Positions 2,472 through 64,000 of a DNA stretch of 64,000 bases are shown here, piece after piece. A model generated the notes under the pieces. It was given only the letters and a program-made list of their open reading frames with translations, searched no databases and had not been told where the DNA came from. A program made the position numbers and the translations under genes. This stretch comes from an uncultured Alphaproteobacteria bacterium. Lineage in GTDB: Bacteria > Pseudomonadota > Alphaproteobacteria > CAAGCB01 > CAG-977. The DNA is taken from NCBI GenBank assembly GCA_944392845.1, contig CALXYE010000132.1, positions 725-64,724 on the forward strand. The letters run 5' to 3'. The first letter of the stretch is position 1. The number at the start of each line of letters is the position of its first letter.

Positions 2472-3110
2472 ATGACACCCGATAAGATCAAAGAATTTTT
2501 CGCGCGTATGAAGCGGGAAAATCCCGAACCGAAGTGCGAACTGAATTATACGACCCCGTTTACTTTGCTGGTTGCGATCGTTTTGTCCGCGCAAACGACG
2601 GACAAAAACGTCAACAAAGCGACTCCCGAACTGTTCAAAATCGCCGATACGCCCGAAAAAATGGCGGCTTTGGGCGAAGAAAAACTCAAGGCGTACATCC
2701 GTTCCATCGGTCTGTTCAATACGAAAGCCAAAAACGTTATTGCGTTATCGAAAGAGCTGATTGAAAAATACGGCGGAAACGTTCCGAATGACAGGGACGT
2801 CTTGCAGACCTTACCCGGAGTGGGGCGCAAAACGGCGAACGTTTATTTAAACACATTGAACGGCGCGCCGACGATCGGCGTTGACACGCATGTTCTGCGT
2901 TTGGGCAACCGTATCGGCCTGGCAAAGGGCAAAACGCCCTTGGAGGTCGAAAAGAATATGGAAAAGGCGGTTTTCGGCACGATTCCCGACGAAGATTTGA
3001 AATATGTCGGGCATTGGCTGGTTTTGCACGGGCGCTATGTCTGCACGGCGAAAAAACCGCGCTGCGGCGAATGTCCCGTTGCGGATTTGTGCGAAAAAAA
3101 CGGATTGTAG
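2472..3110 (+). CDS. nth: Endonuclease III (DNA glycosylase/AP lyase)
   Basis: HhH-GPD motif LPGVGRKTANVYL and the C-terminal 4Fe-4S cluster ligands C-x6-C-x2-C-x5-C (CTAKKPRCGECPVADLC). Confidence 0.9.
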   Translation: MTPDKIKEFFARMKRENPEPKCELNYTTPFTLLVAIVLSAQTTDKNVNKATPELFKIADTPEKMAALGEEKLKAYIRSIGLFNTKAKNVIALSKELIEKYGGNVPNDRDVLQTLPGVGRKTANVYLNTLNGAPTIGVDTHVLRLGNRIGLAKGKTPLEVEKNMEKAVFGTIPDEDLKYVGHWLVLHGRYVCTAKKPRCGECPVADLCEKNGL

Positions 3111-3142
3111 GTTTGGATTTTTTACGACAGGACCGGAAGAAA

Positions 3143-3547
3143 ATGAAGAAAGCTCCATTATACGCATTGCTTCTTTGTTTATGCGGGTGTGCTGAAACGG
3201 GTACGTTTTCCGAGGCGGGAAAATCTCTCTTTTCTCGAACTGTCAAAAATGAGAAATGCGAGGATATTGAAGTAGTGAAAGTGTTTCAAGTTACTAAAGA
3301 CTTTTCTTTAGGAAATGTTTGTGAAGAATCCTCTTACGGAATAAGTTGTTTTGGGCATGTTGTTTATATTCCTAAAGAAAAAGGAAAATTATATTACGAT
3401 GATCAAATTATAAAGCCTGAATCTGGAAAATGCTTTTCGTATAGTAGTACATATCAATATGAAGATTGCATCGGATATTTGTGTCGCCAACGTACCGTTC
3501 CCGTAATCGAGTTTGTTGACGAAGAAATTTCCGTTAAAAACAGATGA
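3143..3547 (+). CDS. Cys-rich lipoprotein of unknown function, in a low-GC islet
   Basis: MKKAPLYALLLCLCGCA lipobox, then 8 further Cys. Coding DNA is markedly more AT-rich than its flanks. The ORF-track start at 3014 is an artefactual extension into nth. Confidence 0.5.
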   Translation: MKKAPLYALLLCLCGCAETGTFSEAGKSLFSRTVKNEKCEDIEVVKVFQVTKDFSLGNVCEESSYGISCFGHVVYIPKEKGKLYYDDQIIKPESGKCFSYSSTYQYEDCIGYLCRQRTVPVIEFVDEEISVKNR

Positions 3548-3634
3548 TGGTTTGAAAATTATTGATTTTTAAACGGGGCGACGGCATTTAAAAAATTAAA
3601 AGGGGCTGACCAGGCGGATTTCATCGTGATTGCG

Positions 3635-4408
3635 TTAAAATCCTTCGTCTGAATAAGGTCGGGTAAAGCGGCATGCGGGATAGCTTTTACATCCCCAAAA
3701 TTTCCCGTATTTTCCTTCCCTTAATACAAGTTGATTGCCGCACCTGGGACATAAATCGTACCGTTCAATACGTTTTGATTCTAAAGTTTTGCGTTTAACG
3801 GCGGAAATATGTTTTTTTCGTATTTCCGGAGCGTCTTCATTTAGAGCCGTTAAAATACTCGTTATCAGGCCGATTTGGGAAAGAGTCAGTTTTATATCGG
3901 TATATCCGTATATATTTTTGTTTAATTCATTTAAGTATATAATATTACTTTCCGTATTTACACGTAAATTACAATCTGATGTAAAGACGACAATAGGAAT
4001 AAACTTATCGTTGGGTAAACTTAAAATTTTTTGAAGAGCTAAAACATGGCTTTTATTTTGTTTTATCGGATTGTAAAACGAATACTTATGTCCGAATATA
4101 TTTTGAGTCCAATTTTTCGAATTTTCGTTTCCTGAAATCCATCCCTTAATATGTTTCGTTTCGATAACGAAAATTCCATAGACCGAAATAACAATATGAT
4201 CGATTTGAGTCGTGTGCATCCCCGAGTTTAAAAGAATATTATTTATAACGCGATATTTGTCGGCAGGTAAGGAAGAAAGCTCTTTCGCGACGCGGTATTC
4301 TCCCCAATCGCCTTTTGTTTTTATAATAAAATTTTTAATAAAAGCATCAATCGCAAGAATTATTAAGAATATTGCGATAAATAAAATAAGTGAAAAGATG
4401 CTTTCCAA
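3635..4408 (-). CDS. Membrane-anchored NERD-domain nuclease with C-terminal topoisomerase-type C4 zinc ribbon
   Basis: N-terminal TM helix. NERD core (GDWGEYRVAKEL ... TQIDHIVISVYGIFVIETKH). C-terminal CPRCG-x-CKSYPAC zinc ribbon as in topo I/zf-C4_Topoisom. Low GC. Confidence 0.7.
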   Translation of the reverse strand: MESIFSLILFIAIFLIILAIDAFIKNFIIKTKGDWGEYRVAKELSSLPADKYRVINNILLNSGMHTTQIDHIVISVYGIFVIETKHIKGWISGNENSKNWTQNIFGHKYSFYNPIKQNKSHVLALQKILSLPNDKFIPIVVFTSDCNLRVNTESNIIYLNELNKNIYGYTDIKLTLSQIGLITSILTALNEDAPEIRKKHISAVKRKTLESKRIERYDLCPRCGNQLVLREGKYGKFWGCKSYPACRFTRPYSDEGF

Positions 4409-4417
4409 TGCGTTTTC

Positions 4418-4459
4418 CGTGAAAAGTGATTTAAAAAGGCGGGAACCGTGCCCCGCCTT
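4418..4459 (-). terminator. Rho-independent terminator of trpS
   Basis: AAGGCGGG-8nt-CCCGCCTT stem immediately after the trpS stop, followed on the minus strand by UUUUAAAUCACUUUU. Confidence 0.6.
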
Positions 4460-4465
4460 AGGTGG

Positions 4466-5464
4466 TTAATTCCTTAAAAATCCGATCGTGTCATAGACTT
4501 CGTTCAAAACGGGTTGAGCCAGCGCGTCGGCGCGTTCTCCGCCGTTTTTAAGAACGGAATCAATATAAGCCGTATCCTGCGCAATTTTGTGCATTTCCTT
4601 TGAAATCGGTTCCAATTCCGCGACGACGGCGTCCGTTAAGACTTTTTTGAAGCGCGAAAATTCTTGTCCGCCGACTTCTTTTAAGGCCTCTTCAGTCGTA
4701 ATGTCGCGGACGCCCGCATAAATATTAACCAGATTTAACGCTTCGGGGCGGCCTTCAAAGCCTTCGACCGTTTCGGGCAGGGGCATCGGGTCGGTCTTTG
4801 CCTTGCGAAATTTCAGCGCGATTGTGTCGGCGTCGTCCGACAGGTTGATGCGCGAGTAATCCGACGGGTCGGATTTGCTCATCTTTTTCGTCGCGTCGCG
4901 CAGGCTCATGACGCGGCGGGAAGTTCCCAACATTACGGGTTCGGGCAGAGGAAAAACATTGCATTTATAATCGTTGTTGAATTTGACGGCGATGTCGCGC
5001 GCCAGTTCCAGATGCTGGATCTGATCTTCGCCGACGGGGACTTTCGTCGCCTTATAAACCAAAATGTCCGCCGCCATCAGGCTGGGGTACGCGAACAAGC
5101 CCAAAGAAACGTTTTCACGGTTTTTTCCCGCTTTGTCCTTGAACTGGGTCATACGGCTCATCCATCCCATGCGGGCGACGCAATTCAAGACCCAGGCCAG
5201 CTCGGCATGGGCGGGAACGCGGCTTTGGTTAAACAGGATGTGCTTTTTCGGGTCCACGCCCGCCGCCAGCATACAGGCTGCGACTTCGTGAACGCTGCGA
5301 ATCAGCTCGGCAGGCTCCTTAAAGATCGTTATGGCGTGCATGTCAACGACGCAGTAAATGCATTCGTAACCGCTTTGAAGTTTTACCCAGTTGCGAATAG
5401 CGCCCAGATAATTGCCTAAATGAAGGTTTCCCGTGGGTTGAGCCCCTGAAAAGATGCGTTCCAT
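4466..5464 (-). CDS. trpS: Tryptophan--tRNA ligase
   Basis: Class I aaRS HIGH-type motif ([11 protein letters not shown]) and KMSKS. Confidence 0.95.
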
Positions 5465-47997: not shown

Positions 47998-49392
47998 GTG
48001 AAGCCTTTGAAACCTTTATTTATATCGGGACGCGAAGTCCTCCCTCTGATTGAGGGAGGCAAAGGCGTCGCCGTTTCAACGGGAAAAACGGCGGGAGCGT
48101 GGGCGGCCGAAAACGCGGTCGGTACGATCTCGGGCGTCATTCCCGACGTCGTTGACGAAGACGGTAACGTCATCCCGATGAAAATTAAGGCAAAATCCCG
48201 CCGCGAGCGTTTTGAGGAGCAGGTGCGCCATTCGATAGAGGGATGCATCACTCAGGCAAAGCTCGCTTATGAAATATCAAACGGGCTTGGGCGTATCCAT
48301 CTGAACGTTTTATGGGAACAGGGCGGAGCGATTTCGATTCTCGAAGGTGCTCTGGCCGGTGCGAAAGGCCTGATCCACGGCGTAACTTGCGGTGCGGGAA
48401 TGCCTTACAAGCTGGCTCAGATTGCGTCCTCTTTCAAAACGTTCTATTATCCCATCGTTTCTTCGGGACGCGCTTTTAAAGCGTTGTGGGCGCGCGCTTA
48501 TCATTCTTACAAAGAATTTTTGGGCGGCGTCGTTTACGAAGATCCGTGGAAGGCGGGCGGACACATCGGCCTGTCCAACAGCGAGGATCCGAACGTTTAT
48601 GAAGATCCGTATCCCCGCGTTCTGGCATTGCGCAAAGCGATGAAGGAAGCGGGGCTGGACGATACGCCCATCATTATCGCGGGCGGCGTTTGGTATCTGC
48701 GCGAATTTGAACGCTTTATCGATAATCCCGAAATCGGCCCGACGGCTTTTCAATTCGGAACGCGGCCCCTTTTGACGAAGGAAAGCCCTGTTGCCGAAGC
48801 GTGGCAGAAAACGTTGCTGGGATTGAAGCCGGGCGATGTCGTTCTGCAACGTTTCAGTCCGACGGGGTTTGCGTCTTCGGCGGTACGGAACGGGTTCTTG
48901 AACGATTTGTTCGAACGTTCCGCGACGACGATGGAGTATAAGGACGCTCCCGAGGGCGTTTTCCAGTTTCCGCTGGAAATCGGACACCGAAAGATTTATG
49001 TGGCCGACGCCGATAAAACGCGGGCGAACGAATACTTTAAAAAAGGGCGTACCGTGATTTTGCGGGTTCCCGACAATCAGATTATTTTCGTTACGCCGAA
49101 AGACAACGAAAATATTCGGACGGCGCGGACGAATTGCATGGGATGCATTTCGCAGTGTCTGTTTTCGGGATGGTCTCAGTCGGGTGAACATAACACGACG
49201 GGCAAAGAACCCGATTCCCGTTATTTCTGCATTCAGGAAAAGCTGTACCGCGTCGCTCACGGTTTCCCCGTTGAAGGCGAACTGATGTTCGCGGGGGCTA
49301 ATGCCGTGCGTTTTGCGACGGATCCGTTTTTTAAGGACGGACGCCTTCCGACGGTTAAGGAATTTATCGCCCGTCTGCTGACGGGGGACTAA
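47998..49392 (+). CDS. Nitronate monooxygenase/FabK-family (TIM-barrel, FMN-dependent) oxidoreductase with C-terminal extension
   Basis: GTG start. NMO-like N-terminal segment. IIAGGV and FQFGTRPL resemble the GGI ... VQ-GT-F motifs. 464 aa is longer than canonical NMO. Confidence 0.45.
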   Translation: MKPLKPLFISGREVLPLIEGGKGVAVSTGKTAGAWAAENAVGTISGVIPDVVDEDGNVIPMKIKAKSRRERFEEQVRHSIEGCITQAKLAYEISNGLGRIHLNVLWEQGGAISILEGALAGAKGLIHGVTCGAGMPYKLAQIASSFKTFYYPIVSSGRAFKALWARAYHSYKEFLGGVVYEDPWKAGGHIGLSNSEDPNVYEDPYPRVLALRKAMKEAGLDDTPIIIAGGVWYLREFERFIDNPEIGPTAFQFGTRPLLTKESPVAEAWQKTLLGLKPGDVVLQRFSPTGFASSAVRNGFLNDLFERSATTMEYKDAPEGVFQFPLEIGHRKIYVADADKTRANEYFKKGRTVILRVPDNQIIFVTPKDNENIRTARTNCMGCISQCLFSGWSQSGEHNTTGKEPDSRYFCIQEKLYRVAHGFPVEGELMFAGANAVRFATDPFFKDGRLPTVKEFIARLLTGD

Positions 49393-49413
49393 GCCGAAGA
49401 TCTTGATAAAAAA

Positions 49414-49437
49414 AGACCGCTTTTAGGCGGTCTTTTC
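49414..49437 (+). terminator. Terminator after the oxidoreductase gene
   Basis: AGACCGC-UUUUAG-GCGGUCU, then UUUUC. Confidence 0.55.
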
Positions 49438-49535
49438 AATATGTTCCGTCATTTTTTAAAAAGAGTCTTGAAAAGGCTCTTTTTTTATTTAATCATAGAA
49501 TAAATAGAAAGTATTTAAAAAACGGGATAAATGAA

Positions 49536-49952
49536 ATGGGTAAAATCGCTCGTCCTTACGCGTGGACGGTAGATATTTTACGGCGCGCCAATTTGCGTCC
49601 GACGCGTCAGCGTATGGGATTGGTACGTTTATTGTTTGAAAACGGGCATCGTCACGTTTCTGCCGAGGAGTTATACAAGGAAGCCTGTCGGAACGGGTTG
49701 GATTTGTCTTTGGCGACGGTTTATAATACATTGAACCAGTTTAAGGAACTGGGGATCATGCGCGAGATCGTTACGGGCGGGGAATGCTCTTTTTTTGATA
49801 CGAACACGGCGCCTCACGGCCATATATTTTATGAGCAAAGCGGCAGAGTTGAAGACATATCGGACGATATGCTTTCCGTTCAAACGTTACCGGGGTTTCC
49901 GTCGCACTTGGACATATCGGGCATTGAGATCGTCATCCGCGTCAGGGGATGA
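49536..49952 (+). CDS. Fur-family transcriptional regulator, Irr-like (iron response regulator)
   Basis: LRPTRQRMGLVRLL winged-helix segment. No C-terminal Cys metal site but a HGH His cluster, as in Irr. Sits in an AT-rich neighbourhood. Confidence 0.7.
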   Translation: MGKIARPYAWTVDILRRANLRPTRQRMGLVRLLFENGHRHVSAEELYKEACRNGLDLSLATVYNTLNQFKELGIMREIVTGGECSFFDTNTAPHGHIFYEQSGRVEDISDDMLSVQTLPGFPSHLDISGIEIVIRVRG

Positions 49953-50310
49953 GTTTTTTTATCGCTTAAAGAAACATCGAAAAGATCCGAAAGCTCCCTT
50001 TATTTCGTTATTCGTTAAAAGGGGAAGAGGGAATTTAAATCCCCCTCAGACGTTAAAAAGGCGGGTATGTTCCGAAAGTTATTTTCTTAACGTGCCGAAA
50101 TTGTTTTTAAAAATTTTCGGATGCATGCCTTTTCGCGGCGGGTATCCGAATTTTTATACGCTTTTGAAATATAACGACATTTCTTTCTCCTTACTTTTAG
50201 GAAAGTGAAATAAACCGCTTAATAAATCCGATTGCAAAATCTTTCGGTTTTGATAGTGTGTTTAAGGAACGGTATCTGCCGTTCAGGGCGTCAGAAACCC
50301 TTTCAGAGAT

Positions 50311-50471
50311 AGTCGCTTTGCATAAGCGACTTTAAAAATAGTTATGCCGATTTCTGCTCCGTGCGGGCGGATGTCGGCTGAATACGGCTATCCGCCCAAT
50401 AGGTCGAGCCGTATATCTCTGTACGGTTTCTGAACATCCGCCCACCTTATTTTTTAAGGTGGGTTTTGTTT
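50311..50471 (+). promoter_or_regulatory. Candidate cis-regulatory leader RNA with mutually exclusive antiterminator/terminator structures, upstream of the lipoprotein gene
   Basis: Hairpin 50311-50331 (8-bp perfect). GGGCGGAUG (50365-73) can pair with UAUCCGCCC (50389-97) or with CAUCCGCCC (50435-43). The latter overlaps the 5' arm of the terminator CCACCUU-7nt-AAGGUGG + GUUUUGUUU (50442-71). Confidence 0.45.
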
Positions 50472-50499
50472 AACCAAAAAAACAAAAGGACGTTCGGAA

Positions 50500-50910
50500 A
50501 TGAAAAAATTTCTTTTTTCGGCTTTGTTAGCCGTTTCTTTGTCAGCATGCGCATCTTTGACAAGGATGGAAGAAAACCAACTCAGGGAATTGAAAACTTA
50601 CGGTATCAGCGTTGATAAACCGACGGGATATTGGGAAAAACCCGCAAGCCCGTTAGCAGCGGGAATGTTGAACCTTCTGCCCGGGGTCGGGAATTTTTAT
50701 CTGGGAGTGGGCAACGGTTCCGACGGAGCGCAGGTTCTGTACGGATTTTTAAACCTGTTGTTTTGGCCCGCATCCATATTATGGGGGATTCCCGAAGCCG
50801 CGATAGATGCCGGTACGATCAATGAGCGCGAGCTGTTATACTACTACGCTTATGATCCGAACGGCAAACGCGAACTTGAAGAAGCTCGGAAAAAATTCGG
50901 GAAAAAATAA
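50500..50910 (+). CDS. Lipoprotein with TM2-like Gly-rich domain
   Basis: Lipobox LSAC and RBS AAGGA. LLPGVGNFYLGVGNGSDG ... LLFWPASILWGI resembles the TM2 domain. Confidence 0.5.
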   Translation: MKKFLFSALLAVSLSACASLTRMEENQLRELKTYGISVDKPTGYWEKPASPLAAGMLNLLPGVGNFYLGVGNGSDGAQVLYGFLNLLFWPASILWGIPEAAIDAGTINERELLYYYAYDPNGKRELEEARKKFGKK

Positions 50911-51100
50911 CGAAAAGCGCGGCGGATTTTTACGCTTATAAAAAACCGTCGCGCAGAAAAAAGCGGAGACGGAGGGCGCGCTTTGAGCCGTCGGCGTTTC
51001 GGAAGCGTCGGCATATTGCAACCGCGTCGTCGGCAACGCTCTTTTATCAATGTGCCTTTCTCTTCCGCTCTTTCCCGTTTCGGCATGAACGGAGAGGGCA

Positions 51101-51583
51101 TCATTCATATATTTCGTCGGGATAAACGCCCCAAAGGATTTTCTTGGGAAGCCAGCCCTCGAAACCTTGTAAGTCAACTTTGCAAAAATTAACGTGATCG
51201 GGACACATTTCCAACTTTCCGATGACTCCCGCTTCCGCTTTGGCAACGGGCAGAGCTCCTTTTGCGGGGGCGCGCAACAGCAGGGCATCTTCGTTCAGAC
51301 GGATCGTTCGGCGTCCCGACAGCATATGCTGATGCACCCATCCTTCTTTGCCGTCCCAATCCTTGATGCGCCGCCAGTTTTCAAATTCTGCCGTGATTTC
51401 GACGGGCAGATCGCTTTTCATATAGACCCATTCAACGGGATAACGCATTCCCGGCCCCGTACGCAGGTTAATCTGGTTTGAGCGCAACGATACGAAGCGC
51501 GGAATCGGCAATCCCGTAACGTCTGCCGCGCACGGACGGGAAAAAAGGGTTAAAAGCGTTACAAAAAACGGCCAAAACTTCAT
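51101..51583 (-). CDS. Secreted bacterial SH3-domain protein
   Basis: Signal peptide MKFWPFFVTLLTLFSRPCAA. SH3b-like RTGPGMRYPVEWVY ... GWV segment. Start set at an internal ATG 1 nt after the dut stop. Confidence 0.55.
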   Translation of the reverse strand: MKFWPFFVTLLTLFSRPCAADVTGLPIPRFVSLRSNQINLRTGPGMRYPVEWVYMKSDLPVEITAEFENWRRIKDWDGKEGWVHQHMLSGRRTIRLNEDALLLRAPAKGALPVAKAEAGVIGKLEMCPDHVNFCKVDLQGFEGWLPKKILWGVYPDEIYE

Positions 51584-62389: not shown

Positions 62390-62465
62390 GCCGCAGTAGC
62401 TCAGCTGGTAGAGCAACGCATTCGTAATGCGTGGGTCGGGAGTTCAAATCTCTCCTGCGGCACCA
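62390..62465 (+). tRNA. tRNA-Thr (anticodon CGU)
   Basis: Cloverleaf folded by hand. 7-bp acceptor GCCGCAG/CUGCGGC, D-arm GCUC/GAGC, anticodon stem ACGCA/UGCGU with loop UUCGUAA, T-arm GGGAG-UUCAAAU-CUCUC. CCA is encoded. Confidence 0.9.
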
Positions 62466-62466
62466 T

Positions 62467-62510
62467 TAAAAAGCCTTGTTTCTTTCGGGATTCAAGGCTT
62501 TTTTGGTTTT
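62467..62510 (+). terminator. Terminator after tRNA-Thr
   Basis: AAGCCUUG-14nt-CAAGGCUU followed by UUUUGGUUUU. Confidence 0.7.
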
Positions 62511-63016
62511 TAAGTCAAAATTCAACGGTTTGATTTTTTAAAAGCGTTTCGCGCTTATTTCGCGCGAAGGTCGCGTAAAAATTCGGGGCGTTTTACAGGG
62601 GCGAGCGCGATTCGTTCTTTCGTAAAAAAAGAAACGGGCGGATTTTTGAGTTTAAGTAATCTTTTTAGAGGGGATATCCGTTTTTTCGCGACGGACGGAA
62701 CCGCGTTCGGTTTTATCGCTTCCTTTATTGCTTCCGAAAAAGTGTCGCGCTGATTTTTTCCGTTTCGGTTTTTCGATTGCGCGTATTCGGGGGGCGGCCT
62801 TGTGCCTTTTTTGATTCGGTCTTCCGCGAGGCGCTTTTCGGAGCGAGTCGTTTTCTTTATCAGATATTCAAATCCCGTTTTTTCCCGTTTTTTCTTCTTT
62901 GAAGGGGGTTTTTGCGCTTATTTAAATATAAATTATACCTTTTATTATGATTTTGTTTATTTATTCCGAATACCCTGTAAAATAAGAAAAACATCTCTCG
63001 CGCACGGGTGAATGCC

Positions 63017-64000
63017 ATGTCTTTGACAATTTTGACGATTTTGTGCATCTGCGTTACGTCGTTTTGCGGAATCTTTTTGGGAAATTTGAAGTTTAAAGGC
63101 ATCAGCATCGGCATGGGCGGCGTTTTGTTCGCGGGCCTGATTGCGGGACATTTTCTTCATTTCGGCGGAAAGGCTCTGAACGCGGACGTTTTAGCATTTT
63201 TGCGCGAATTCGGATTGATTCTGTTCATTTACTCTATGGGACTGAGCGTCGGGCCGGGGATATTTGCTTCGTTGAAAAAGAACGGGCTGACGCTGAATCT
63301 GATCGCTTTGGCCGTCGTCGCGCTCGGCACGCTGACCGCCGTCGTGATTTATAAGTTTTCTGGGATTTCCCTGTCCGAAACGCTGGGGCTTTATTCGGGC
63401 GCCGTAACCAGCACGCCCGCGTTGGGCGCCGCACAGCAAATCCTGGGCGAGCTCGGCGTTAAAGCGGAAGAGATTGCAAAATCGGGCTTGGCCTATGCTC
63501 TGGCGTATCCGTTCACGATCCTGTCCAGCATCATGGTTTTTATCGCTTTGAAGTTTGTGTGCCGCGTCAATATCGGCGACGAAGTGGCTTCTTACGAATA
63601 CCGCAAGGCTCAAGACAATCCCCAAATGGAAGCGTTTAACGTCGTCGTAAACAACCCGAATTTTAACGGAATCGAAATCGGGCATTTTTTAAAAATGGTG
63701 CATTACGTCATGGCGGTTTCAAGAATGAAACGCGGTGACGAATATCTGGTGCCTCACGAACATACGAAATTGCAGGTCGGGGACGTTTTGTTGCTGTTCG
63801 GACCGAAAAGCTATTTTGAAACCGTATCCATGCTGTTTCAGGTCGATCCGAAACGCGATTTGATGGCGGAAAGCGCAAATAAAATTCAATCTCAGACCTT
63901 GCGCGTGACAAAGCCTTCTCGGGTCGGAAAGCCGTTGCGCAAAATTATGGGACATGCCCGCCGCCATTGGGTGATTTCCCGCGTGATCAGAAACGGCATT
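63017..64000 (+). CDS. YidE/YbjL (AspT/AAE) family transporter, 5' portion (continues beyond window)
   Basis: ATG at 63017. The frame stays open to the window end. N-terminal TM bundle then an RCK_C/TrkA_C-like domain (NGIEIGHFLKMVHYVMAVSRMKRGDEYLVPHEHTKLQVGDVLLLFG). Confidence 0.7.
   Translation, partial: MSLTILTILCICVTSFCGIFLGNLKFKGISIGMGGVLFAGLIAGHFLHFGGKALNADVLAFLREFGLILFIYSMGLSVGPGIFASLKKNGLTLNLIALAVVALGTLTAVVIYKFSGISLSETLGLYSGAVTSTPALGAAQQILGELGVKAEEIAKSGLAYALAYPFTILSSIMVFIALKFVCRVNIGDEVASYEYRKAQDNPQMEAFNVVVNNPNFNGIEIGHFLKMVHYVMAVSRMKRGDEYLVPHEHTKLQVGDVLLLFGPKSYFETVSMLFQVDPKRDLMAESANKIQSQTLRVTKPSRVGKPLRKIMGHARRHWVISRVIRNGI

What the first reader, a model, noticed from the sequence alone, without database searches (positions are those of the whole stretch)
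3120..4465. Low-GC 1.3-kb islet between nth and trpS: Cys-rich lipoprotein plus membrane-anchored NERD nuclease with topoisomerase zinc ribbon
The two genes at 3143-3547 and 3635-4408 sit in DNA that is visibly far more AT-rich than the flanking core genes. That is the classic signature of recent horizontal acquisition.

The larger protein combines an N-terminal TM helix, a NERD (nuclease-related) domain and a zf-C4 topoisomerase-type ribbon. NERD proteins are predicted PD-(D/E)xK-like nucleases that recur in phage-defence neighbourhoods.

The partner is a convergent, 8-Cys lipoprotein with no homology I can recognise.

The pair is wedged into the otherwise conserved alphaproteobacterial nth ... 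trpS-murJ-glnD-mutS block. The islet has no integrase, and the NERD gene start abuts the trpS terminator. It is a candidate compact defence or toxin/immunity-like module.
Basis: partly seen in the sequence, partly recalled or inferred. Interest (0 to 1): 0.6.

Follow-up and report, generated by a model that had tools for sequence, protein, structure and literature searches.

The report
Low-GC nuclease-lipoprotein islet in variable hotspot
Two foreign-looking genes, a membrane-anchored NERD nuclease and a small exported lipoprotein, sit in a spot between nth and trpS that carries different cargo in each related genome, which makes them a plausible but untested anti-phage or anti-plasmid islet.

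Summary
Window 3111-4465 is 35.6% GC against 53.1% overall, the lowest value of any equal-sized stretch. It holds a 134-aa lipoprotein gene (3143-3547, +) and a convergent 257-aa TM + NERD + Topo-I zinc-ribbon gene (3635-4408, -).

The islet is accessory. Four relatives share the flanking synteny but have four different contents between nth and trpS: lipoprotein + NERD, NERD alone, kinase-like + lipoprotein homologue + HD + GmrSD/BrxU-like enzyme, or no called gene.

It is not a toxin/immunity pair, because NERD occurs without the lipoprotein. It is not very recent either: the relative's NERD is 76% identical against 96% for the flanks, with dN/dS 0.14. nth-trpS adjacency is clade-specific, not alphaproteobacterial (0 of 80 distant genomes).

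The NERD catalytic residues and zinc cysteines are invariant, and the predicted fold is restriction-endonuclease-like. The lipoprotein belongs to a large unannotated family. Its members lie next to NERD genes in four independent contexts, and elsewhere next to Azaca, Hachiman or GmrSD genes.

Best reading: a defence-hotspot islet with a membrane-tethered nuclease that cuts incoming DNA, by analogy with SNIPE, and an envelope partner of unknown role. No named system matches and nothing was tested functionally.

The parts
3111..4465 (.). Low-GC accessory islet between the nth stop and the trpS stop
   Evidence: 35.6% GC against 53.1% for the window, z = -4.6, the lowest 1355-bp stretch. Content differs among four syntenic relatives.
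3143..3547 (+). 134-aa exported small protein ('family A'). It has an N-terminal signal peptide with lipobox L-C-G-C (Cys16) and an all-beta, OB-like domain at residues 34-130.
3143..3190 (+). Signal peptide and lipobox (MKKAPLYALLLCLCGC)
   Evidence: Read from the sequence. Homologues share the ...CGC / ...SSC / ...TAC lipobox at the same position. The strict PROSITE-type pattern fails at position -4 in this copy.
3548..3634 (.). 87-bp spacer between the two convergent stop codons
   Evidence: No terminator-like hairpin was flagged here.
3635..4408 (-). 257-aa TM + NERD (PD-(D/E)xK) + Topo-I-type C4 zinc-ribbon protein, TTG start
4337..4399 (-). N-terminal transmembrane helix (residues 4-24). 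Predicted N-out/C-in, because there is no basic residue before it and a K-rich segment follows it.
   Evidence: Sequence and family alignment. Helix 2-44 in the AF2 model. The topology is inferred from the positive-inside rule and was not tested.
3980..4315 (-). NERD nuclease domain (residues 32-143) with E37, D70, H71, E83-x-K85, Q117, N118 and H121
   Evidence: Pfam stretch 32-143. These residues are invariant in 28 homologues.
3653..3754 (-). C-terminal C4 zinc ribbon (residues 219-252; C220, C223, C240, C246)
   Evidence: Pfam PF01396. The cysteines are invariant. Matches the C-terminal zinc ribbons of E. coli topoisomerase I, 4rul.
4430..4459 (-). trpS intrinsic terminator hairpin (GGCGGG-loop-CCCGCC plus T run), about 25 nt upstream of the NERD start codon
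   Evidence: Retained in the relative L001, where differences fall in the stem and are partly compensatory.
2472..3110 (+). nth (endonuclease III), left border of the hotspot
   Evidence: Pfam HhH-GPD and EndIII_4Fe-2S. 96% aa identity to L001.
4466..5464 (-). trpS, right border of the hotspot
   Evidence: Pfam tRNA-synt_1b. 96% aa identity to L001.

Best explanation
The nth-trpS junction of this alphaproteobacterial clade is an integrase-less variable hotspot that collects horizontally acquired, defence-type genes. In this genome it holds two such genes.

(1) An inner-membrane-tethered PD-(D/E)xK (NERD) endonuclease. Its catalytic domain and its C-terminal topoisomerase-type zinc ribbon, a DNA-binding module, face the cytoplasm. 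The most likely mechanism is cleavage of foreign DNA (phage, plasmid or transforming DNA) as it crosses or leaves the inner membrane. The tether would keep the nuclease away from the nucleoid. This is the same logic as the SNIPE membrane nuclease.

(2) A small disulfide-containing, OB-like lipoprotein exported to the envelope. Its family is a recurrent resident of defence islands. It is often, but not always, a neighbour of this NERD subfamily. It probably acts on the periplasmic side as an exclusion factor or an accessory/sensor. It is not an antitoxin.

Shown here: composition, the domains, conserved catalytic residues, the predicted fold, presence/absence among relatives, neighbourhoods and purifying selection.

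Inferred only: topology, the nuclease substrate, the defence function, and any physical or functional coupling of the two proteins.
For: - GC and GC3 anomaly.
- Four different fillings of the same junction in syntenic relatives: W, L001, L163 and L166. L163 carries a GmrSD-type gene that hits PADLOC HEC-05 (the BrxU type) at 1e-50.
- NERD and zinc-ribbon domains with invariant E37/D70/E83/K85 and four Cys.
- dN/dS of 0.14 between W and L001, so the gene is maintained. Its dN is about six times that of the flanks.
- NERD and partner genes have lower GC than their host contig in six other loci; in L119 only the partner gene does.
- Homologues occur on plasmids, on C. difficile phage records and in integrase/resolvase islands.
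- Immediate neighbours of homologues hit PADLOC: mREase_IV 1.5e-181, PDC-S13 3.5e-115, PDC-S02 4.5e-127, PDC-S26 2.6e-13. By Pfam they include HNH, PDDEXK_4 and Mrr_cat.
- Family A small proteins adjoin NERD in four independent contexts with different orientations: W, L086-88, L092/93 and L099. Elsewhere they adjoin Azaca ZacA/ZacB (3e-77 / 2e-130), Hachiman HamB (8e-108) and an integrase/TA island.
- Unrelated small lipoproteins lie directly upstream of NERD in L119, L121 and L123.
- Literature: NERD is an effector in a validated defence system, HEC-02 (bioRxiv 10.1101/2024.01.29.577857). SNIPE shows that an N-out single-TM nuclease with a DNA-binding domain cleaves phage DNA at injection (bioRxiv 10.1101/2025.11.03.685801).
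Against: - No experiment addresses function, and no named PADLOC system is matched. Only the NERD modules of PglW (7e-8) and MkoA (0.037) hit.
- The window locus has no other defence gene nearby and lies among housekeeping genes.
- The general test 'NERD has an exported neighbour' is only marginal on an unbiased set of 24 NERD clusters: 10-11 observed against about 6 expected, p about 0.03-0.06.
- NERD stands alone in L001, and family A often stands without NERD. The pair is therefore not obligate.
- A characterised TM + NERD protein, SmdA of S. aureus, is a cell-division factor and not a defence protein (PMC9040797).
- One NERD protein, ZwsA, cleaves RNA rather than DNA (bioRxiv 10.64898/2026.04.06.716636).
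- No promoter was recognised for NERD downstream of the trpS terminator, so its expression is unknown.
Confidence: 0.5

Rival explanations
1. Obligate two-gene envelope-coupled system. The periplasmic lipoprotein senses or blocks phage DNA injection or envelope damage and controls the membrane-tethered NERD nuclease through its TM helix. The variable lipoprotein families would set the specificity.
For: - Family A lies next to NERD in four independent loci, sometimes with a 4-bp overlap (L088).
- Three further NERD loci have a non-homologous small lipoprotein directly upstream on the same strand.
- L092 has exported small proteins on both sides of NERD.
- 7 of 9 loci of the closest NERD subfamily (45% identity or more) have an exported neighbour.
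Against: - L001 keeps an intact, selected NERD without any partner.
- Family A also occurs beside Azaca, Hachiman or GmrSD genes without NERD.
- In the window the genes are convergent, so they are not co-transcribed.
- NERD exposes only about 3 residues to the periplasm.
- The association is weak over all 24 NERD clusters.
Confidence: 0.17
2. Housekeeping membrane NERD protein, analogous to SmdA. It would act as a cell-envelope or division factor, or as a membrane-nucleoid tether, and not as a nuclease against invaders. The neighbouring lipoprotein would reflect envelope biology.
For: SmdA has the same outline: a short outside N-terminus, one TM helix and a cytoplasmic NERD-like domain. It affects septation (PMC9040797). 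The recurrent lipoprotein neighbours could fit an envelope role.
Against: - SmdA is conserved in its family and, according to its authors, lacks several of the most conserved NERD residues. Here all catalytic residues are invariant.
- The gene is accessory: absent from L163 and L166.
- It is AT-rich and fast-evolving.
- Homologues are found on plasmids and phage records and beside restriction genes.
- SmdA has no zinc ribbon.
Confidence: 0.08
3. DNA-uptake or repair nuclease. A membrane-tethered enzyme would process incoming single-stranded DNA during transformation or conjugation for the cell's own benefit (EndA/NucA/CoiA-like), or assist repair next to nth.
For: The zinc ribbon is of the type found in the C-terminal region of topoisomerase I. 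That this region binds single-stranded DNA is established knowledge and was not tested here. There is a weak CoiA_N similarity (E 0.037), and a CoiA_N protein neighbours a homologue in L132.
Against: - No competence or conjugation genes are nearby.
- The adjacency to nth is not conserved outside the clade, and the gene is missing in relatives.
- The neighbourhoods of homologues are restriction or defence genes, not competence genes.
Confidence: 0.1
4. Nuclease toxin with a lipoprotein immunity or antitoxin partner.
For: The genes are adjacent and both are AT-rich. The nuclease could be toxic if released from the membrane, as the SNIPE delta-TM construct is.
Against: - NERD is intact without the lipoprotein in L001.
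- The lipoprotein is exported, while the NERD domain is predicted to be cytoplasmic.
- Family A pairs with many unrelated genes.
- There are no secretion or delivery domains.
Confidence: 0.04

Closest known systems
Pfam architecture NERD (PF08378) + Zn_ribbon_Top1 (PF01396), annotated in databases as 'NERD domain-containing protein' (Grynberg & Godzik 2004; classed as PD-(D/E)xK by Steczkiewicz et al. 2012, PMC3424549)
   Same: Same two domains in the same order, with an N-terminal hydrophobic helix. 2182 homologues were found; all 120 listed carry both Pfam domains. The catalytic D...ExK motif and four Cys are invariant.
   Different: Nothing differs in architecture. The family itself has no demonstrated function. 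This copy is 50% identical or less to all others except one relative at 76%.
SNIPE membrane-bound anti-phage nuclease (bioRxiv 10.1101/2025.11.03.685801)
   Same: Single N-terminal TM helix with the N-terminus outside, a cytoplasmic DNA-binding module and a nuclease domain. In SNIPE, membrane tethering was shown to protect the host chromosome, and cleavage occurs during genome injection.
   Different: Not homologous. SNIPE uses DUF4041 and a GIY-YIG nuclease; here the modules are a PD-(D/E)xK NERD domain and a Topo-I zinc ribbon, in the opposite order (nuclease first). The resemblance is one of logic only and is untested here.
NERD-containing defence systems: HEC-02 (ABC ATPase + NERD), Mokosh type I MkoA, BREX type 2/Pgl PglW, Nhi-like (PMC10952713; bioRxiv 10.1101/2024.01.29.577857)
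   Same: The NERD nuclease module is shared. There are PADLOC hits to the PglW N-terminus (7e-8) and to MkoA (0.037), and NCBIfam hits to MAD6 and PglW below their cut-offs.
   Different: No kinase, helicase or ATPase partner or fusion is present. No HEC-02 model hit was found. The TM helix and zinc ribbon are absent from those systems' descriptions.
SmdA of Staphylococcus aureus (PMC9040797)
   Same: TM helix plus a cytoplasmic NERD-like domain.
   Different: SmdA is essential and conserved in its family, has a degenerate NERD and no zinc ribbon, and acts in cell division. The window gene is accessory and has an intact active site.
Integrase-less defence hotspots between core genes; GmrSD/BrxU type IV restriction (HEC-05)
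   Same: One core-gene junction (nth-trpS) has alternative cargo in relatives, including a GmrSD_N protein that hits HEC-05 at 1e-50 in L163.
   Different: The hotspot is defined here from only four alleles. The window allele carries no recognised system.

Membership tests
NERD / PD-(D/E)xK nuclease (PF08378) | Profile match above the curated threshold | tested here: met
   114.5 bits against a cut-off of 22.1, E 4.6e-33, covering profile positions 1-111 of 111.
NERD / PD-(D/E)xK nuclease (PF08378) | Catalytic acidic residue plus the (D/E)xK motif | tested here: met
   D70 and E83-T-K85, plus E37, are invariant in 28 homologues.
NERD / PD-(D/E)xK nuclease (PF08378) | Restriction-endonuclease-like alpha/beta fold | tested here: met
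NERD / PD-(D/E)xK nuclease (PF08378) | Metal-dependent nuclease activity | not testable with these tools
   Needs biochemistry.
Topoisomerase-type C4 zinc ribbon (PF01396) | Profile match and four zinc-ligand cysteines | tested here: met
   53.8 bits against a cut-off of 32. C220, C223, C240 and C246 are invariant. Aligns to the E. coli TopA C-terminal ribbons, 4rul.
Bacterial lipoprotein (small protein 3143-3547) | Signal peptide ending in a lipobox with an invariant Cys | tested here: inconclusive
   MKKAPLYALLLCLCGC has L-C-G-C. The Cys is nearly invariant in the family and homologues have typical lipoboxes. This copy fails a strict PROSITE-like pattern at position -4. No dedicated predictor was available.
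Known anti-phage systems in PADLOC-DB 2.0 | Match of the proteins to the system's models, with the required partner genes present | tested here: not met
   NERD matches only the NERD module of PglW (7e-8) and MkoA (0.037). The lipoprotein has no hit. No kinase, helicase or ATPase partner lies within the islet.
Toxin-antitoxin / toxin-immunity pair | Obligate co-occurrence of the two genes, with both products in the same compartment | tested here: not met
   L001 has NERD without the small gene. Family A occurs without NERD in L089, L098, L106 and L163. The predicted compartments differ, which is inferred from the sequence.
Classical genomic island / integrative element | Integrase, tRNA or other attachment site, and flanking direct repeats | tested here: not met
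   There is no integrase ORF. The only tRNA lies at 62390. No meaningful flanking repeats were found.
Variable (defence) hotspot between core genes | Same flanking core genes with different accessory cargo among relatives, including defence genes | tested here: met
   W has lipoprotein + NERD. L001 has NERD only. L163 has kinase-like + lipoprotein homologue + HD + GmrSD (HEC-05, 1e-50). L166 has a 622-bp gap.
SNIPE-like membrane-tethered injection nuclease (works like, not homologous to) | N-out single TM helix, cytoplasmic DNA-binding domain and nuclease; cleavage of DNA at entry; toxicity of the delta-TM form | not testable with these tools
   The architecture is analogous. There is no sequence relationship, since the domains differ. 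Topology and activity are untested.
SmdA-type morphology determinant | Core, conserved gene with a degenerate NERD and a division phenotype | tested here: not met
   The gene is accessory in the clade and its NERD motifs are intact. No direct sequence comparison with SmdA was made.

The most novel reading that the evidence does not exclude
TM-NERD-zinc-ribbon nucleases together with interchangeable small envelope lipoproteins (family A, and at least three other unrelated lipoproteins, one of which recurs in two loci) form an unrecognised, widespread two-part anti-phage or anti-plasmid system. The periplasmic partner would detect or obstruct DNA entry, and the membrane-tethered nuclease would destroy the entering DNA. 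Family A would then be a general envelope-side accessory that also serves other defence systems (Azaca, Hachiman, GmrSD).
Probability: 0.15. Interest if true: 0.7.

Novelty: new variant of a known kind. Interest (0 to 1): 0.45.

Why it matters
Nuclease-based immunity usually tells self from non-self by sequence or by modification. SNIPE recently showed a third way, which is location at the membrane.

A very common but uncharacterised protein family (TM + NERD + zinc ribbon, thousands of members) has the right layout to use that same principle with a different nuclease and a different DNA-binding module.

The work here also flags an unannotated exported protein family of at least 722 clusters that keeps turning up beside defence genes, and a clean natural presence/absence series at one locus. 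Both are directly testable. Either result would put a function on two large 'hypothetical' families.

Tried and rejected
- Family searches for the small protein in Pfam, PADLOC, PHROGs and NCBIfam found nothing.
- No flanking direct or inverted repeats, tRNA or integrase were found. A classical integrative element was therefore rejected.
- I tested whether NERD genes in general have an exported neighbour. On 24 NERD clusters fetched without reference to the small protein the result was marginal (10-11 of 24 against 26% expected, p about 0.03-0.06). My signal-peptide heuristic is crude and missed L123 and the window's own gene in a first version. I do not rest the case on this test.
- The broad alignment A4 was too diverse for locus scanning.
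- The context look-up of P0130 gave contigs too short to be informative.
Close relatives had to be reached through exact-protein look-ups.
- A sequence search of PDB with the NERD profile found no solved NERD domain, only topoisomerase zinc ribbons.
- The toxin/immunity and SmdA-like readings were considered and rejected, as set out under the rival explanations.
Full report
**1. What is in the sequence**

The interval between the nth stop codon (3110) and the trpS stop codon (4466) is 1355 bp at 35.6% GC. The window average is 53.1%. It is the most AT-rich 1355-bp stretch in the 64 kb, with z = -4.6; the next lowest is 43.1%. Third-codon-position GC is 27% and 30% for the two genes, against 62-66% for nth, trpS, murJ, glnD and the fructosamine-kinase gene.

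They are convergent, with 87 bp between the stop codons. Gene callers on four public contigs that carry the identical locus give the same products.

The larger protein hits NERD (PF08378, E 4.6e-33) and Zn_ribbon_Top1 (PF01396, E 1.6e-14). The flanking genes are endonuclease III and TrpRS.

The trpS terminator hairpin (4430-4459 on the minus strand) ends about 25 nt before the NERD start codon. It is retained in a relative, where differences fall in the stem and are partly compensatory. No sigma-70-like promoter was seen between the terminator and the start codon. NERD may therefore depend on read-through or on an unrecognised promoter; this is an inference.

No integrase, tRNA or flanking repeats mark the borders.

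**2. Is it acquired, and when?**

The host is a poorly represented alphaproteobacterium.

In 80 such distant genomes murJ usually lies upstream of trpS, but nth is never within 6 kb and NERD never occurs there. The 'conserved alphaproteobacterial nth...trpS block' therefore does not exist at that depth.

Within the close clade the synteny does hold: Bax1-I, LMW phosphatase, fructosamine kinase, nth, then the junction, then trpS, murJ, glnD, mutS. The junction is filled differently in each lineage:

| Locus | Identity of flanks to the window | Content between nth and trpS |
|---|---|---|
| Window | - | lipoprotein + NERD |
| L001 | 96% aa, 89-91% nt | NERD only, with an unalignable 155-bp spacer of 49% GC in place of the lipoprotein gene |
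| L163 | Nth 86%, TrpS 91.5% | a P-loop kinase-like protein, a homologue of the lipoprotein (49% identical) and an HD protein in an overlapping operon of host-like GC; then a 36%-GC GmrSD_N gene that hits the PADLOC HEC-05 (BrxU-type) model at 1e-50; no NERD |
| L166/L167 | Nth 78%, TrpS 85% | 622 bp with no called gene |

This is a variable hotspot and the islet is accessory.

It is not a very recent arrival. The NERD genes of the window and L001 sit at the same position but are only 76% (aa) and 78% (nt) identical. Between them dS is 1.0, against 0.43-0.62 in the flanks, and dN is 0.143, against 0.02-0.04. The dN/dS ratio is 0.14. The gene is therefore maintained by selection. Either it evolves several-fold faster than its neighbours, or it has been exchanged for a diverged allele. 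The low GC has not been ameliorated in either lineage.

**3. The NERD protein**

The domain combination is common: 2182 homologues, and all 120 listed carry the same two Pfam domains.

In an alignment of 28 homologues the following are invariant: E37, D70, H71, E83, K85, Q117, N118 and H121, plus the four zinc cysteines C220, C223, C240 and C246.

By sequence, no solved NERD domain exists. The ribbon aligns to the C-terminal ribbons of E. coli topoisomerase I.

The N-terminus has no basic residue before the hydrophobic helix and a Lys-rich stretch after it, across the whole family. This predicts an N-out/C-in orientation with a cytoplasmic nuclease. The prediction is an inference, but it fits the need for a reduced C4 zinc site.

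**4. The small protein**

It starts MKKAPLYALLLCLCGC, a lipoprotein-type signal. A strict lipobox pattern fails at one position in this copy, although homologues have typical lipoboxes.

It has no hit in Pfam, PADLOC, PHROGs or NCBIfam. It is not an orphan, however. A word-indexed search found 7 relatives, and a profile search of 1.84 billion representatives found 722 at E <= 1e-3 and 209 at E <= 1e-10. These include TM-anchored and tandem-domain versions.

C39, C97, Y106 and P120 are invariant, and C60 and C69 nearly so. This suggests two disulfides in an exported domain, which is an inference.

**5. Are the two genes a unit?**

Evidence for a link:
- Family A genes lie directly beside a NERD + zinc-ribbon gene in four independent genomic contexts with different orientations. 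These are the window (convergent), L086-88 (tandem, with a 4-bp overlap in L088, between PhoU and ABC-transporter genes), L092/93 (convergent, in an integrase/resolvase island) and L099 (tandem).
- Three further close NERD homologues (L119, L121, L123) have a small lipoprotein immediately upstream on the same strand. These lipoproteins are not homologous to family A.
- L092 has an exported small protein on each side of NERD.

Evidence against an obligate link:
- L001 keeps NERD alone.
- Family A occurs without NERD in L089, L098, the L100-118 group and L163.
- On 24 NERD clusters fetched independently of the small protein, an exported neighbour is only marginally over-represented.

The two products are also predicted to lie on opposite sides of the inner membrane. 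A toxin/immunity relationship is therefore rejected. A looser functional or ecological association is likely, and a true two-part system remains possible (about 15-17%).

**6. Defence context**

The immediate neighbours of NERD homologues include:
- a type IV methyl-directed restriction enzyme (PADLOC 1.5e-181);
- PDC-S13 (3.5e-115), PDC-S02/Mrr (4.5e-127) and PDC-S26 (2.6e-13);
- HNH and PDDEXK_4 proteins.

Homologues also occur on plasmids and on C. difficile phage records.

Family A genes sit next to Azaca ZacA/ZacB (3e-77, 2e-130), close to Hachiman HamB (8e-108), beside the GmrSD-like gene in L163, and in an integrase/toxin-antitoxin island.

NERD and partner genes are more AT-rich than their host contig in six other loci examined; in L119 only the partner gene is.

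The literature agrees on the general point. NERD is classed as PD-(D/E)xK with unknown function (PMC3424549). It appears in Mokosh I, Nhi-like and PglW (PMC10952713). A NERD effector with an ABC ATPase partner (HEC-02) has been validated as a defence system (bioRxiv 10.1101/2024.01.29.577857). A multidomain NERD protein, ZwsA, cleaves RNA-phage genomes (bioRxiv 10.64898/2026.04.06.716636).

Against this, the window protein matches no PADLOC system beyond the NERD modules of PglW and MkoA. The only characterised TM + NERD protein, SmdA, is a staphylococcal division factor with a degenerate NERD (PMC9040797).

**7. Mechanism proposed**

The layout has three parts: an outside N-terminus with a single TM helix, a cytoplasmic nuclease and a DNA-binding module. 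This parallels SNIPE. SNIPE is a non-homologous GIY-YIG membrane nuclease shown to cut phage DNA during injection, and its membrane tether prevents self-cleavage (bioRxiv 10.1101/2025.11.03.685801).

I therefore propose that this NERD protein is a membrane-tethered endonuclease acting on DNA as it enters the cell. The exported OB-like lipoprotein would act on the envelope side as an exclusion factor or an accessory.

Shown here: domains, residues, fold, accessory status, selection and neighbourhoods. Inferred: topology, substrate, defence function and coupling. My confidence is about 0.5 in the general reading (a defence-type accessory islet with a membrane nuclease) and lower for the details.

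**8. Verdict**

The NERD gene is an ordinary member of a large, uncharacterised family. What is new here:
- the natural allele series at the nth-trpS hotspot;
- the recognition that the 'orphan' lipoprotein belongs to a large unannotated family that tracks defence loci;
- the recurrent lipoprotein-NERD adjacency.

The finding is of moderate interest, at 0.45. It is a good, cheap experimental candidate rather than a surprise.

Noticed in passing
L166 8640-9261 (the 'empty' nth-trpS gap of a relative): The gap has no called gene. It does contain a lipoprotein-like ORF of about 125 aa on the trpS strand (...KKYLIVLLCLLSTAC...). This ORF is weakly similar (BLASTP E 4e-5, 21% identity) to the unrelated lipoprotein that precedes NERD in L121. 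Small lipoprotein genes may be the older residents of this junction.
   Followed up: partly
window 62390-64000: GC drops to about 45% immediately after tRNA-Thr(cgt) at 62390-62465. Three small minus-strand ORFs (84, 164 and 82 aa) have no Pfam hit. This may be a second, tRNA-adjacent islet that runs off the end of the window.
   Followed up: partly
window 49350-50900: This is the second-lowest GC stretch, at 43%. It holds a Fur-family regulator gene (49536-49952), two ORFs without any Pfam hit (50500-50910 + and 50836-51288 -) and a further no-hit ORF (49795-50208) that overlaps the Fur gene.
   Followed up: partly
L092/L093 4400-8600: The NERD gene is flanked on both sides by small exported proteins. 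Upstream and divergent is a lipoprotein homologous to the one upstream of NERD in L119. Downstream and convergent is a TM-anchored family A member. The whole unit sits between two resolvase + integrase modules.
   Followed up: partly
L163 3224-4574: In this relative the family A homologue lies in a three-gene operon with 4-bp overlaps: a P-loop kinase-like protein (AAA_33/dNK-like), the lipoprotein, then an HD-domain protein. The operon has host-like GC (47%), unlike the adjacent 36%-GC GmrSD gene. This suggests that family A can work with partners other than NERD.
   Followed up: no
L098 3833-7543 and L106 350-4339: TM-anchored family A members lie directly upstream of a complete Azaca pair (ZacA, ZacB) next to a TraG-like coupling protein. 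In a widespread human-gut locus they lie about 2 kb downstream of a Hachiman HamB helicase gene, with three small genes in between, at least two of which have lipoprotein/secretion-type N-termini.
   Followed up: partly
window 3635-4408 compared with L001 1420-2196: Synonymous divergence of NERD (dS 1.0) is about twice that of the flanking core genes (0.43-0.62). This hints at allelic replacement by recombination at the hotspot rather than simple vertical descent.
   Followed up: no
L119 1486-6025: This NERD locus is surrounded by two Fic-domain genes and by a Bro-N-like gene that hits the PADLOC candidate PDC-S13 at 3.5e-115.
   Followed up: no
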